Source: Escherichia coli
GTDB taxonomy: Bacteria > Pseudomonadota > Gammaproteobacteria > Enterobacterales > Enterobacteriaceae
DNA length: 64,000 bases
Reading direction: 5' to 3' (one strand)
Assembly: GCF_003334335.1 (NCBI RefSeq)
Contig: NZ_QOWQ01000023.1
Position numbers and translations under genes: made by a program. The notes under the pieces are model-generated. The model worked only from the letters and a program-made list of their open reading frames with translations, ran no database searches and was not told where the DNA came from. Position 1 is the stretch's first letter; each line of letters begins with the position of its first letter. Shown piece after piece: positions 58,539 to 62,672 of this stretch.

Positions 58539-59843
58539 TTAGAACTGCGATTCTTCAGTGGAGCCGGTCAGCGCGGTGACTGAAGACGTGCCGCCCTGAA
58601 TAATAGTCGTCACTTTATCGAAGTAACCTGTACCCACTTCCTGCTGGTGAGATACGAAGGTATAGCCATCTTTCGCGGCGGCAAATTCCGGCTGCTGCAC
58701 TTTCTCAACGTAGTGCTTCATACCCTCGCCCTGGGCATAGGCGTTTGCCAGGTCAAACATGTTGAACCACATGCTGTGGATACCTGCCAGGGTGATGAAC
58801 TGGAACTTGTAGCCCATATCCGACAGCTGCTGCTGGAAGCTGGCAATAGTTTTGTCGTCGAGGTTTTTCTGCCAGTTGAACGACGGCGAGCAGTTATAAG
58901 CCAGCAGTTTGCCCGGATATTTCGCGTGGATAGCTTGTGCAAAGCGACGCGCCAGTTCCAGATCCGGCGTGGAGGTTTCACACCAGACCAGGTCAGCATA
59001 TGGCGCATACGCCAGGCCACGGCTGATCGCTTGCTCAATGCCCGCATGAGTACGGAAGAAGCCTTCACTGGTACGCTCGCCGGTAATAAATTCGCTGTCA
59101 TACGGGTCGCAATCGGAGGTGATCAGATCCGCCGCATCAGCATCGGTACGGGCAACCAGCAGGGTTGGAACGCCCGTCACGTCAGCTGCCAGACGCGCCG
59201 CGACCAGTTTCTTAATAGCTTCCTGAGTTGGCACTAAAACTTTGCCGCCCATGTGACCGCATTTCTTCACTGACGCCAGCTGATCTTCGAAGTGAACTGC
59301 CGCTGCACCGGCTTCAATCATCGCTTTCATCAGTTCAAAGGCATTCAGGACACCGCCAAAACCGGCTTCCGCATCGGCAACGATCGGCAGGAAGTAATCG
59401 ACATAGCGCGGATCGCCCGGCTCAATGCCCGCGGACCATTGGATCTGATCGGCACGACGGAAGGTGTTGTTGATCCGCTCCACCACAGCTGGCACCGAGT
59501 TTGCCGGATAGAGCGACTGATCCGGATACATGCTGGCCGCCAGGTTAGCGTCCGCCGCTACCTGCCATCCCGACAGATAGACTGCTTCAATACCCGCTTT
59601 CGCCTGTTGCAGCGCCTGACCGCCAGTCAGTGCGCCGAGGCTGTTGATGTAGCCTTTTTTCGACTCACCGTGCAGCAGACGCCACATTTTCGCTGCGCCC
59701 AGTTGCGCCAGCGTGCATTCAGGATTGACTGAACCGCGTAATTTCACCACATCTTCCGCACTGTATGGGCGAGTAATGCCTTCCCAACGCGGTTGAGTCC
59801 ACTCTTTCTGTAATTCTTCAATTTGTTGTGTACGGGTTTTCAT
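58539..59843 (-). CDS. aceA: isocitrate lyase AceA (434 aa)
   Basis: [38 protein letters not shown]...; catalytic KKCGHMGGK. Confidence 0.97.
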
Positions 59844-59872
59844 GTGCAGATGCTCCATAGTTATGTGGTGGT

Positions 59873-61474
59873 TTACGCTAACAGGCGGTAGCCTGGCAGG
59901 GTCAGGAAATCAATTAACTCATCGGAAGTGGTGATCTGTTCCATCAAGCGTGCGGCATCGTCAAAACGCCCCTGGGAGAAACGTTCTTCGCCCAGTTCGC
60001 TGGCAATGACTTTCATCTCTTCGCCCAGCATCTGGCGGAACAAGGCTTTGGTCACCGGTTTGCCATTGCTCAACGTTTTTTGATGATGGATCCACTGCCA
60101 GATCGAGGTACGGGAAATTTCAGCCGTCGCCGCATCTTCCATCAGGCCATAAATCGGCACACAGCCGTTGCCAGAGATCCACGCTTCGATGTACTGCACA
60201 GCCACGCGAATGTTGGCGCGCATACCTTCTTCGGTGCGTTCACCATCACAAGGTGCCAGCAGCTGATCGGCAGTAATCGGCGCGTCTTGTTCGCGCATCA
60301 CTTCAAGCTGATTTTTACGGGAGCCGAGAATGTCGTTGAATACCGCCATTGCCGTGTCCGCAAGGCCTGGGTGAGCGATCCATGTGCCATCGTGACCGTT
60401 ATTGGCTTCCAGCGATTTATCCGCTTTTACTTTGTTGAGCACCTGGTTATTGTGCTCTTCATCTTTGCTCGGAATAAACGCCGCCATGCCGCCCATCGCA
60501 AAAGCACCGCGTTTATGGCAGGTTTTAATCAACAGGCGTGAGTAAGCATTCAGGAATGGTTTATCCATCGTCACTGCCTGTCTGTCTGGCAGGACGCGAT
60601 CGGGATAGTTTTTCAACGTTTTGATATAGCTGAAGATGTAATCCCAACGACCGCAGTTCAGACCAACAATATGGTCACGCAGCGCGTGAAGGATTTCATC
60701 CATCTGGAACACGGCGGGCAGCGTTTCAATCAGCAACGTCGCCTTGATGGTGCCGCGCGGCAGATTAAAGCGATCTTCTGCATAGCTGAAGACTTCGCTC
60801 CACCAGGCCGCTTCCTGCCAGGACTGGGTTTTCGGCAGATAGAAATAGGGACCACTGCCCTTTGCCAACAGTGCCTGATAGTTGTGGAAGAAATAGAGCG
60901 CAAAATCAAACAGGCTGCCGGGGATTGCCTCACCACGCCAGGTGACATGTTTTTCCGGCAAGTGCAGACCGCGTACCCGACAAATCAAAACCGCTGGATT
61001 GGGCTTGAGCTGGTAAATTTTGCCTGCTTCATTGGTGTAACTGATGGTGCCGTTAACCGCATCACGCAGGTTAATTTGCCCGTCGATCACTTTGTTCCAG
61101 TCTGGTGCCAGTGAATCTTCGAAATCGGCCATAAAGACTTTCACATTGGCGTTGAGCGCGTTGATCACCATCTTGCGCTCTACCGGGCCAGTTATCTCTA
61201 CGCGGCGGTCTTCTAAGTCCGCAGGAATCCCGCGAATTTTCCAATCAGCATCGCGAATGGAAGCTGTTTCCGAAATAAAATCAGGCAACGTTCCGTTATC
61301 AATATCTTGCTGCTGCTGAATGCGCGCTGCCAGAAGTTTATTGCGTTGTGGCGTAAAATGCGTCACCAGCTCAGTCAGAAATTCTACCGCTTCGGCAGTA
61401 AGAATTTGCTTCTCCTGCTCGCCATACGGCCTTGTGAAAGCCAGTTCATCGGTTGTTGTTGCCTGTTCAGTCAT
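59873..61474 (-). CDS. aceB: malate synthase A AceB (533 aa)
   Basis: [40 protein letters not shown]... Confidence 0.97.
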
Positions 61475-61580
61475 CGTGCAGCTCCTCGTCATGGATCCGA
61501 AAACTTCCCCACTGTGAACGAAGGATCGTTGTGCTCTTTTCGTTCAGCACAACTAAGACTACTCATTTAAAATGCAAAAT

Positions 61581-61599
61581 CAAAAACAATTTCCATTTT
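61581..61599. promoter_or_regulatory. IclR operator candidate in aceBAK promoter
   Basis: Minus-strand sense AAAATGGAAATTGTTTTTG, resembling TGGAAAT-N-ATTTCCA. Confidence 0.65.
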
Positions 61600-61671
61600 A
61601 ATTAAAAATACTTGATAACTTGTTGATAACAATATGAATAAAATTTATTCACCTGCTGAGGTACGTTTCGG

Positions 61672-61698
61672 AAATAAAAAAGGCACCCGAAGGTGCCT
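61672..61698 (-). terminator. intrinsic terminator of metA
   Basis: AGGCACC-CGAA-GGTGCCT stem followed on minus strand by TTTTTATTT. Confidence 0.85.
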
Positions 61699-61742
61699 GA
61701 GGTAAGGTGCTGAATCGCTTAACGATCGACTATCACAGAAGA

Positions 61743-62672
61743 TTAATCCAGCGTTGGATTCATGTGCCGTAGATCGTATGGCGTGATCTGGTAGACGTAA
61801 TAGTTGAGCCAGTTGGTAAACAGTAAATTACCGTGACTACGCCAGCTCGCTCGCGGTGTATTTTGCGGATCATTGTGCGGGAAATAGTTATACGGTACAT
61901 CCGGGTCTAGTCCGGCTTCCACATCGCGGAAAAATTCCTGCGCCAGCGTTTGCGCATCATATTCGGGATGGCCCGTCACAAAGGCAATGCGCTTATCTTT
62001 ACTGGCAAACAGATATGCATCCCCTTCTTCCGTCTCTGCCAGAATTTCCAGATCGGTGTAATCACGAATCAACGCTGCCGGAAAGTCAGCATAGCGCGAA
62101 TGCGGTGCCAGGAATGAATCATCAAAGCCACGCGTCAGAAGCGCATGAGGATGGAGAATATGATGCTCGTAAACGCCAGAGAGTTTGTCGGTGCGAGTTT
62201 GCTTAGGAATGCCGTAGAGGATATTGAGCGCGGCCTGTACCGCCCAGCAGACAAACAGCGTCGAGGTGACGTGATCTTTCGACCACTCCAGCACCTGTTT
62301 GATCTGCGGCCAGTAAGCGACATCATTAAACTCCACCAGGCCCAGCGGCGCACCAGTTACAATCAAACCGTCAAAGTTCTGATCCTGAATATCTTCAAAG
62401 TTACAGTAGAAGTTGTTCAGATGCTCTGCGGGCGTGTTGCGCGATTCACGGGAATCGATGCGCAACAGCTGAATATCGACCTGCAAAGGTGAGTTTGAAA
62501 GCAGGCGCAGAAACTGATTTTCAGTTTCAATCTTCTTCGGCATCAGGTTAAGGATCAGAACCTTAAGTGGACGAATTTCCTGACCAGACGCACGAGAAGT
62601 TGTCATCACAAAGACGTTTTCTTCACGCAAGAAATTGACGGCGGGTAGCTCGTCCGGCACACGAATCGGCAT
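61743..62672 (-). CDS. metA: homoserine O-succinyltransferase MetA (309 aa)
   Basis: [51 protein letters not shown]... Confidence 0.96.

What the first reader, a model, noticed from the sequence alone, without database searches (positions are those of the whole stretch)
61493..61560. Spaced inverted repeat between the aceB start codon and its promoter/IclR site
TGTGAACGAA (61513..61522) and TTCGTTCAGCA (61540..61550) form a 10-bp inverted repeat with a 17-nt spacer just upstream of the aceB start (61474). In the mRNA this would form a stem-loop close to the RBS, or at DNA level a dimeric regulator site distinct from the IclR box at 61581..61599.
Basis: seen in the sequence. Interest (0 to 1): 0.25.

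Follow-up and report, generated by a model that had tools for sequence, protein, structure and literature searches.

The report
Conserved 5'-end hairpin of aceBAK mRNA
The inverted repeat is real, is transcribed, and most likely folds into a small hairpin at the very start of the E. coli glyoxylate-shunt (aceBAK) messenger RNA; the hairpin is conserved in related enteric bacteria and is an ordinary kind of element that usually protects an mRNA from decay.

Summary
The window is E. coli metA–aceBAK on the minus strand. The repeat exists, but it is 8 perfect bp (61515-61522 / 61539-61546) with 16 nt between the arms.

Published positions put the aceBAK start site at 61550. The arms are therefore +5..+12 and +29..+36 of a 76-nt leader. 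They lie downstream of the IclR box and promoter, and end 27 nt upstream of the Shine-Dalgarno.

Across 67 distinct Enterobacteriaceae leaders, this pairing is the only conserved structure:
- 85-92% of cells are paired.
- A-U changes to G-U and G-C, and C-G changes to U-A.
- 34 double-change cells are seen against 13±3 in shuffles.

The two competing small hairpins, which E. coli's own minimum-energy fold prefers, are either not conserved or not compensated. In the consensus the stem begins at +3, and at +2 in this allele.

Best reading: a 5'-terminal stem-loop that limits 5'-end-dependent decay (RppH/RNase E). The function is inferred, not shown.

A DNA operator is unlikely. No known factor motif fits, arm spacing varies from 14 to 17, and no site is annotated there. 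The strand-asymmetry test, however, did not exclude it.

Verdict: a new member of a known kind, of low to moderate interest.

The parts
61539..61546 (-). 5' arm of the hairpin, UGAACGAA, +5..+12 of the aceBAK mRNA
   Evidence: Exact inverted repeat. It is the most conserved segment of the leader, with a majority fraction of 0.95. It pairs with the 3' arm in the RNAalifold consensus.
61515..61522 (-). 3' arm of the hairpin, UUCGUUCA, +29..+36
   Evidence: C at the column pairing with position 8 occurs only when position 8 is G (13 of 13 in the main clade).
61523..61538 (-). 16-nt loop AAGAGCACAACGAUCC; CACAACGAUC is largely conserved and contains a GATC (61524-61527)
   Evidence: Alignments A1 and A2. 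Loop length is 14-17 nt among species with intact arms. One metagenomic variant (L083) keeps the arms but has an unrelated loop.
61547..61549 (-). Outer extension of the stem on the 5' side (+2..+4). In this allele U+2·A+38 and G+3·C+37 pair, with C+4 bulged. In most species G3-C37 and C4-G36 pair, with U5 bulged.
   Evidence: Constrained fold. RNAalifold consensus. Pair 4-37 switches between CG, UG and UA.
61513..61514 (-). Outer extension of the stem on the 3' side (+37..+38)
61550..61550 (-). aceBAK transcription start (G), taken from the literature; G at 61548 is the alternative
   Evidence: [quoted passage not shown] RegulonDB centre positions IHF -72 and IclR -38 coincide with the IHF consensus at 61616-61628 and the IclR-like site at 61581-61595.
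61556..61561 (-). -10 hexamer TAGTCT
   Evidence: Read from the sequence and conserved in all Enterobacteriaceae aligned. Assignment is by position relative to the published start.
61578..61583 (-). -35 hexamer TTGATT, inside IclR box II (palindrome 61567-61601)
   Evidence: IclR box II is at -52..-19 as quoted.
61531..61535 (-). AGCAC, partner of GUGCU (61546-61550). This forms the competing hairpin +1..+20 that the single-sequence E. coli fold prefers.
   Evidence: MFE fold. Not conserved: 53-56% of cells paired, equal to shuffles.
61526..61530 (-). AACGA, which can pair with UCGUU (61517-61521). This forms the competing small hairpin +21..+34.
   Evidence: MFE fold. Pairing potential is 78-88%, but the U-to-C change in the Enterobacter/Klebsiella-type leaders is not compensated here.
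61482..61487 (-). Shine-Dalgarno GAGGAG of aceB (+64..+69); start codon at 61472-61474
   Evidence: The hairpin ends 27 nt upstream of it.

Best explanation
The repeat is the stem of an RNA hairpin at the extreme 5' end of the aceBAK mRNA.

- Transcription starts at window 61550, from -35 TTGATT and -10 TAGTCT. IclR box II overlaps the -35.
- The first ~38 nt fold into an 8-10 bp stem (+2/+3 to +37/+38) closed by a 16-nt loop. This leaves 0-2 unpaired nucleotides at the 5' terminus.
- By analogy with the ompA and papA 5' stem-loops, such a structure denies RppH and the 5' sensor of RNase E the single-stranded 5' end they need. That would lengthen the life of the aceBAK message once IclR repression is lifted.

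Shown here: the repeat, its position in the leader, its conservation and its covariation.

Taken from the literature: the start site.

Inferred only: that the hairpin forms in vivo in E. coli, and that its role is stabilisation.
For: Position:
- TSS at GTGCTG. It is consistent with the RegulonDB offsets mapped onto consensus sites.

Conservation:
- The arms are the best-conserved part of the leader (0.95 and 0.88, against 0.86 for the SD).

Structure:
- RNAalifold on 25 species returns this helix as the only consensus structure.
- On 25 sequences, 91% of cells are paired, with 1/500 shuffles as good and slid controls at 27-50%.
- On 67 distinct sequences, 84.9% are paired, with 34 double-change cells against 13.4±2.9 (0/500) and slid controls at 26-49%.

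Parsimony on an aceB CDS tree:
- A8 changes to G in two clades.
- C34 is found only with G8.
- U/C flips repeat on that G8 background.
- C-to-U changes opposite G occur in the 3' arm in at least 8 lineages.
- Kluyvera carries a double A-U to G-C change.

RNA-like tolerance:
- Loop length varies from 14 to 17.
- The loop is replaced in L083, and the arm is re-registered with bulges in L025 and L082.

5'-end pairing:
- 87% of leaders have 2 or fewer unpaired 5' nt in the MFE, against 45% of shuffles.

Specificity:
- The covariance model hits only this site in the 64-kb window (E = 1e-11).

Mechanism precedent:
- 5' secondary structures stabilise mRNAs because RppH and RNase E need single-stranded 5' ends (PMC3997798).
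- RppH needs at least 2 unpaired nt (PMC10667835).
Against: - For the E. coli sequence itself, the hairpin is not the predicted minimum. With the start at 61550, two small hairpins (+1..+20 and +21..+34) give -10.1 kcal/mol against -8.3. It becomes dominant only if transcription starts at 61548.
- The leader is not unusually stable (z = -0.2).
- The strand-asymmetry test is neutral. G·U cells number 28 and A·C cells 23 in the main clade. The data therefore do not by themselves separate an RNA helix from a DNA palindrome.
- The 5'-arm sequence is also conserved in Yersinia, Serratia and Dickeya, which lack the 3' arm. Part of the conservation is therefore not due to pairing.
- The sequences are related, so the shuffle statistics overstate significance.
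- No half-life, probing or primary TSS data were available.
- Both alternative folds also bury the 5' end. This fits the proposed function, but it weakens the claim that this particular helix is the functional one in E. coli.
Confidence: 0.5

Rival explanations
1. The repeat is a DNA operator. A dimeric or tetrameric transcription factor would bind the two half-sites at +5..+12 and +29..+36 and block elongation or promoter escape. This would be a regulator distinct from IclR.
For: - Perfect 8-bp dyad in E. coli.
- 86% strict Watson-Crick symmetry across the main clade, with no excess of sense-strand wobble (28 G·U against 23 A·C).
- The 5' half-site sequence is conserved even where the 3' arm is absent.
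- aceBAK is reported to respond to ArcA and CRP without well-mapped sites (PMC3094197).
Against: - No acceptable match to the Cra, CRP, IHF, ArcA, FNR, IclR, FadR, LexA, Fur or PdhR consensus in 61505-61558, while the known Cra, IHF and IclR sites are recovered elsewhere by the same scan.
- The RegulonDB entries for -115..+45 quoted list nothing downstream of -26.
- The half-site spacing (24 bp centre to centre) puts the sites on different helical faces, and it varies by up to 3 bp between species.
- Asymmetric G·U-type states recur and flip within clades.
- In some species the arm re-registers with bulges.
Confidence: 0.1
2. The hairpin is a platform or switch. The conserved loop (CACAACGAUC) or the choice between two folds (+3..+37 versus +1..+20 plus +21..+34) would be read by a trans-acting RNA or protein that tunes aceBAK translation or decay.
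For: - Loop positions A13, A14, C20 and A21 are nearly invariant.
- E. coli has two folds within about 2 kcal/mol of each other.
- A second conserved GGAUC at +53..+57 is complementary to the loop's GAUCC.
- A Cedecea-type clade has a different local hairpin at the +21..+34 position.
Against: - The +1..+20 helix is not conserved.
- GATC is self-complementary, so the loop-to-downstream pairing carries no information.
- GcvB, the obvious CA-rich-target sRNA, pairs with the loop no better than with shuffles.
- No Rfam family matches.
- No report of sRNA control through this leader was found.
- L083 keeps the arms but not the loop.
Confidence: 0.15
3. There is no structural function. The arms would be conserved as primary sequence for another reason, such as the initial transcribed region or promoter escape, and the symmetry would be a by-product or chance.
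For: - A single 8-bp repeat occurs by chance in about 11% of shuffled intergenic regions.
- The leader's stability is average.
- The 5' arm is conserved without a partner in distant genera.
- The covariation rests on few independent events.
Against: - Compensatory and wobble-preserving changes exceed shuffles and slid controls.
- C34 is restricted to the G8 background.
- Independent double changes occur in Kluyvera and in L191/L195.
- The 3' arm is as conserved as the SD.
Confidence: 0.2

Closest known systems
ompA 5'-UTR hairpin hp1 and the papA 5' stem-loop (5'-terminal stabilising stem-loops of E. coli mRNAs; Emory, Bouvet and Belasco 1992; Bricker and Belasco 1999, as cited in PMC3997798)
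   Same: A simple stem-loop beginning within 0-2 nt of the 5' triphosphate of a long 5' UTR, far from the RBS. The expected action is to block access of RppH and of the RNase E 5' sensor.
   Different: No half-life or mutational data exist for aceB. The stem is shorter and weaker (about -7 to -8 kcal/mol) with a large 16-nt loop, and in E. coli it competes with two smaller hairpins. There is no sequence similarity; these elements are a functional class, not a homologous family.
rne 5'-UTR hp2 (a hairpin bound by RNase E for autoregulation)
   Same: A conserved 5'-UTR hairpin with conserved unpaired nucleotides, which could be a protein-recognition element.
   Different: No evidence of any binding partner here, and no sequence or structural similarity was tested or seen. 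Rfam found nothing.
IclR operator (box II) of aceBAK
   Same: A palindromic element in the same control region.
   Different: Box II lies at -52..-19 (61567-61601) and matches the TGGAAAT-type consensus. The repeat studied here is downstream of the start site, has an unrelated sequence (7 of 14 mismatches to the IclR consensus) and has variable spacing.

Membership tests
5'-terminal stabilising stem-loop (ompA/papA class) | Lies in the transcript, with the stem starting within about 2-4 nt of the 5' end | tested here: met
   The published start is at 61550. The stem starts at +2/+3. 87% of 67 leaders have 2 or fewer unpaired 5' nt in the MFE, against 45% of shuffles. Caveat: the start site comes from secondary sources and is assumed to be homologous in other species.
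5'-terminal stabilising stem-loop (ompA/papA class) | The helix actually forms (thermodynamically favoured or probed in vivo) | tested here: inconclusive
   It is the MFE in 42 of 67 species. In E. coli it is 1.8 kcal/mol worse than an alternative pair of hairpins when the start is 61550, and dominant when the start is 61548. No probing data were available.
5'-terminal stabilising stem-loop (ompA/papA class) | Pairing maintained in evolution by compensatory change | tested here: met
   A-U/G-U/G-C at pair 8-34, C-G/U-G/U-A at pair 4-37, and the Kluyvera double change. 0-1 of 500 shuffles are as good.
5'-terminal stabilising stem-loop (ompA/papA class) | Lengthens mRNA half-life; the effect is lost when the stem is opened or a single-stranded 5' tail is added | not testable with these tools
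   Needs rifampicin-chase or reporter experiments.
Palindromic operator of a dimeric transcription factor | Dyad symmetry at the DNA level | tested here: met
   8 of 8 positions in E. coli. 86% Watson-Crick cells in the main clade.
Palindromic operator of a dimeric transcription factor | Fixed half-site spacing and phasing | tested here: not met
   14, 15, 16 or 17 nt lie between the arms in species with intact arms. Bulged re-registration occurs in L025, L082 and L180.
Palindromic operator of a dimeric transcription factor | Match to a known factor's motif, or an experimentally mapped site | tested here: not met
   The consensus scan gives at least 3-10 mismatches for ten factors. The RegulonDB list quoted has no site downstream of -26. 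Reg-Seq had no dynamic range at this promoter.
RBS-sequestering translational hairpin | The stem overlaps the Shine-Dalgarno or start codon, or lies within the 30S footprint | tested here: not met
   The stem ends at +37/+38; the SD is at +64..+69 and the AUG at +77. A separate SD-pairing helix predicted in E. coli is not conserved.
Curated cis-regulatory RNA family (Rfam 15) | Score at or above a family's gathering threshold | tested here: not met
   The best hits are 15-22 bits against thresholds of 46-70, and all are unrelated families.
Intrinsic terminator / attenuator | GC-rich stem immediately followed by a U-run | tested here: not met
   The 3' arm is followed by CACAGUGGGG. The terminator scan finds only the metA terminator at 61681-61698.

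The most novel reading that the evidence does not exclude
The first 38 nt of the aceBAK mRNA would be a two-state element. One state is the long hairpin +3..+37; the other is two short hairpins. Its nearly invariant loop nucleotides would be read by an as yet unknown RNA-binding protein or sRNA. This would give the glyoxylate shunt a post-transcriptional control layer on top of IclR, IHF and Cra. It could also explain why the 5'-arm sequence is kept even in genera that lack the partner arm.
Probability: 0.12. Interest if true: 0.55.

Novelty: new member of a known kind. Interest (0 to 1): 0.25.

Why it matters
aceBAK is a textbook operon whose control is described almost entirely at the level of transcription (IclR, IHF, Cra, ArcA) and of AceK phosphorylation. 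A conserved 5'-terminal hairpin would add an mRNA-stability component that affects how long the shunt stays expressed after induction. It would also matter to people who engineer the glyoxylate shunt or reuse the aceB 5' UTR in reporters, as in the EttA study. The expected effect is modest and the mechanism is of a well-known type.

Tried and rejected
- Rfam scan of 61300-61900 at E ≤ 10: only sub-threshold chance hits.
- Sigma-70 consensus scan: no promoter called, because TAGTCT fails the tool's 4-of-6 rule. The promoter was placed from the literature instead.
- Primary TSS tables: not held or no hit in Thomason 2015, Kim 2012, Conway 2014 and Ettwiller 2016. The start site therefore rests on an EttA-paper primer and on RegulonDB offsets.
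- Competing hairpin +1..+20: not conserved.
- Competing hairpin +21..+34: pairing potential is present, but the Enterobacter/Klebsiella-type change is not compensated. The double changes seen in the wide alignment come mainly from a different Cedecea-type local hairpin.
- SD-sequestering helix UUUUCG/CGAGGA: no better than shuffles.
- Loop GAUCC pairing with downstream GGAUC: 85% 'paired', but GATC is its own complement, so the result is uninformative.
- GcvB targeting of the CA-rich loop: duplex energy equals that of shuffles.
- Sense-versus-antisense wobble asymmetry, as a discriminator between RNA and DNA: neutral.
- Covariance-model search of Yersinia, Serratia, Dickeya, Photorhabdus, Vibrio and Aeromonas loci: no credible homologous hairpin.
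- Literature searches for an aceB leader, hairpin or sRNA role: nothing specific, apart from a TargetRNA3 prediction for MicC without a mapped site.

Full report
**Locus.** The 321-nt region matches all 5,426 complete E. coli genomes, and the annotated features under the match are metA and aceB. On the minus strand the window carries three genes:
- metA at 62672..61743
- aceB at 61474..59873
- aceA at 59858..58539

The 268-nt intergenic region holds several known elements:
- the metA terminator at 61681-61698
- a perfect Cra consensus at 61709-61722
- a perfect IHF consensus at 61616-61628
- the IclR box II palindrome at 61567-61601

**The observation.** The repeat finder gives perfect arms at 61515-61522 (TGAACGAA) and 61539-61546 (TTCGTTCA), with 16 nt between them. 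The claimed 10 bp needs a one-base bulge. On its own, one such repeat is weak evidence:
- The window carries 1.5 of them per kb.
- 11% of shuffled intergenic regions contain at least one.
- Two within a 79-nt stretch (the leader plus 3 nt upstream) occur in 0.8% of shuffles.

**Where transcription starts.** I could not reach primary TSS tables. Two secondary sources agree instead.
[quoted passage not shown] The genomic part of that primer begins GTGCTGAACGAAAAGAGCAC, so +1 is the G at window 61550 (PMC11282234).
- The Reg-Seq supplement quotes RegulonDB centre positions IHF -72 and IclR -38, with IclR box II at -52..-19. With +1 at 61550, the IHF consensus (centre 61622) falls at -72. The best IclR-like 15-mer (centre 61588) falls at -38.

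The promoter is then TTGATT (61583-61578), a 16-bp spacer and TAGTCT (61561-61556). All three are conserved across Enterobacteriaceae. The leader is 76 nt. The arms are +5..+12 and +29..+36, the SD is +64..+69 and the AUG is +77. The repeat is therefore transcribed and sits at the 5' end of the mRNA, not next to the RBS.

**Single-sequence folding.** The result for E. coli depends on the exact start site.
- With +1 at 61550, the minimum-energy fold is two small hairpins: GUGCU/AGCAC at +1..+20 and AACGA/UCGUU at +21..+34. Together they give -10.1 kcal/mol.
Its pairs have probability about 0.2 in a 41-nt context and below 0.01 in the 91-nt context.
- The whole leader is no more stable than shuffles (z = -0.2).

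Thermodynamics alone therefore does not settle which fold E. coli uses. Both alternatives bury the 5' terminus in a stem.

**Comparative evidence.** A protein-guided scan of one genome per species returned 80 aceB loci. In 25 Enterobacteriaceae the leader aligns without difficulty.
- RNAalifold returns one consensus structure only. It consists of pairs 6-12 with 29-35, plus C4-G36 and G3-C37 with U5 bulged.
Only 1 of 500 shuffles is as good, and slid controls give 27-50%.
- The +1..+20 helix is paired in 56% of cells, no better than shuffles.
- The +21..+34 helix is paired in 88% of cells but has no compensatory change at all.

A DNA-pattern scan of metagenomes with the IclR box added 120 loci. 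Pooling gave 67 distinct +1..+46 sequences, including outgroups that lack the hairpin. On this set:
- The consensus helix has 84.9% of cells paired. There are 34 double-change cells against 13.4±2.9 in shuffles (0/500), and slid controls give 26-49%.
- The +1..+20 helix again equals shuffles.
- The +21..+34 helix now shows double changes. These come mainly from a Cedecea-type clade that has its own CUGG/CCAG hairpin there and no long hairpin.

**Independent events.** I mapped pair states onto a neighbour-joining tree of about 960 nt of aceB coding sequence.
- A8 became G in two separate clades, Klebsiella-like and Enterobacter-like.
- C at the partner column occurs only with G8 (13 of 13 in the main clade), and U/C flips recur on that background.
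- The 3' arm shows C-to-U changes opposite G in at least eight lineages.
- Pair 4-37 moves between C-G, U-G and U-A.
- Kluyvera has GGGC/GCCC in place of GAAC/GUUC.
- L191 and L195 have GUAC/GUAC in place of GAAC/GUUC, misaligned by MAFFT and so not counted.

Other RNA-like behaviour is also seen:
- Loop length varies from 14 to 17.
- L083 keeps both arms with an unrelated loop.
- L025, L082 and L180 keep the pairing through bulges or a new register.

The arms are the best-conserved part of the leader, at 0.95 and 0.88 against 0.86 for the SD. A covariance model of the helix hits only this site in the 64-kb window (53.7 bits, E = 1e-11). It finds nothing credible in Yersinia, Serratia, Dickeya, Photorhabdus, Aeromonas or Vibrio loci. 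The element is thus confined to Enterobacteriaceae in the narrow sense.

**What the data do not show.** I expected sense-strand G·U pairs to outnumber A·C cells, which would point to RNA rather than a DNA palindrome. They do not clearly do so. In the main clade the counts are 28 and 23, and 8 of the A·C cells come from the E. coli-type C4/A36, which has an alternative U5·A36 pair. The 5'-arm sequence CTGYYGRNNGAAAA is also retained in Yersinia, Serratia, Rahnella, Dickeya and Hafnia, where there is no partner arm. Some constraint on that sequence is therefore independent of pairing and remains unexplained. The shuffle statistics ignore phylogeny, and the real number of independent compensatory events is perhaps five to ten.

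**DNA-operator rival.**
- The same scan that recovers the known Cra, IHF and IclR sites finds nothing better than 3-10 mismatches for ten regulator consensus sequences in 61505-61558. The consensus strings came from my own knowledge of these factors.
- The RegulonDB entries quoted for -115..+45 stop at -26. Reg-Seq saw nothing, but it admits the promoter had no dynamic range in that assay.
- Variable spacing and a 24-bp centre-to-centre distance argue against a rigid dimer.

I rate this rival at about 0.1.

**Mechanism.** A stem beginning 0-2 nt from the triphosphate is the defining geometry of the 5'-terminal stabilisers of ompA and papA. RppH and the RNase E 5' sensor both need single-stranded 5' ends (PMC3997798). 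RppH needs at least two unpaired nucleotides (PMC10667835). Among the 67 leaders, 87% have at most two unpaired 5' nucleotides in the predicted fold, against 45% of shuffles. I therefore commit to a 5'-terminal protective hairpin as the most likely function (about 0.5). The function is inferred by analogy, and in E. coli itself the alternative fold would do the same job.

I tested several other ideas and found no support:
- an SD-sequestering helix
- loop-to-downstream GAUC pairing, which is uninformative
- GcvB targeting of the loop
- an Rfam family

**Novelty.** Searches of the held literature found no description of this hairpin or of any post-transcriptional role for the aceB leader. The EttA paper shows only that the 5' UTR alone confers EttA-independent expression. 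The element is a new member of a well-known kind in a classical operon. It is useful to know, not surprising, and easy to test.

Noticed in passing
window 61524-61527 and 61494-61497 (minus-strand mRNA +24..+27 and +54..+57): Two GATC (Dam) sites are conserved in most Enterobacteriaceae aceB leaders. One lies in the hairpin loop and one about 20 nt before the AUG. GAUCC and GGAUC could pair, but GATC is self-complementary, so conservation says nothing about pairing. Kosakonia-type leaders keep the first site and lack the second.
   Followed up: partly
L034-L049, L058, L069 (Yersinia, Serratia, Rahnella, Dickeya, Pectobacterium, Brenneria, Hafnia), first 15-25 nt after the predicted start: The start of the leader (CTGYYGRNNGAAAA, then GACCAG-like) is conserved at the sequence level in genera that lack the 3' arm and have 120-180-nt leaders. 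This points to a constraint on the initial transcribed region that is independent of the hairpin. It remains unexplained.
   Followed up: partly
L050-L055, L065, L070, L073 (Photorhabdus, Moellerella, Proteus, Providencia): The IclR box II and -10 are conserved, but the aceB leader is only about 28 nt and has no hairpin.
   Followed up: no
window 61490-61492 (minus strand): An in-frame ATG lies 18 nt upstream of the annotated aceB start, so the longest ORF is 539 aa rather than 533 aa. It lies in the leader upstream of the SD and is ATA in another E. coli (L002), so the annotated start stands.
   Followed up: partly
window 61681-61698 (minus strand): A textbook intrinsic terminator of metA (AGGCACC-TTCG-GGTGCCT followed by a T-run) lies about 45 nt after the metA stop. 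It should insulate aceBAK from metA read-through.
   Followed up: no
window 61709-61722 (+) and 61616-61628 (-): There are perfect matches to the Cra consensus (about -166) and the IHF consensus (centre -72). The IHF site coincides with the RegulonDB position and helped fix the start site.
   Followed up: yes
window 61635-61651: An almost contiguous palindrome, TGAATAAA-T-TTTATTCA, lies at about -85..-101, between the IHF site and the upstream IclR box I region. It was not analysed.
   Followed up: no
L027-L030, L103, L116, L128 (Cedecea-type leaders), +21..+35: These leaders lack the long hairpin. Instead they carry a different local hairpin (CUGG-N5-CCAG or GCAC-N4-GUGC) at the position of E. 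coli's small +21..+34 hairpin. Some early hairpin may therefore be the conserved requirement.
   Followed up: partly
window 61531-61536; E. coli alleles in L003, L098 and others: The window and K-12 carry AAGAGCAC in the loop, whereas the commonest E. coli allele in the metagenome sample is AAGCGCAC (26 loci against 3). The polymorphism shifts the register of the competing +1..+20 hairpin.
   Followed up: no
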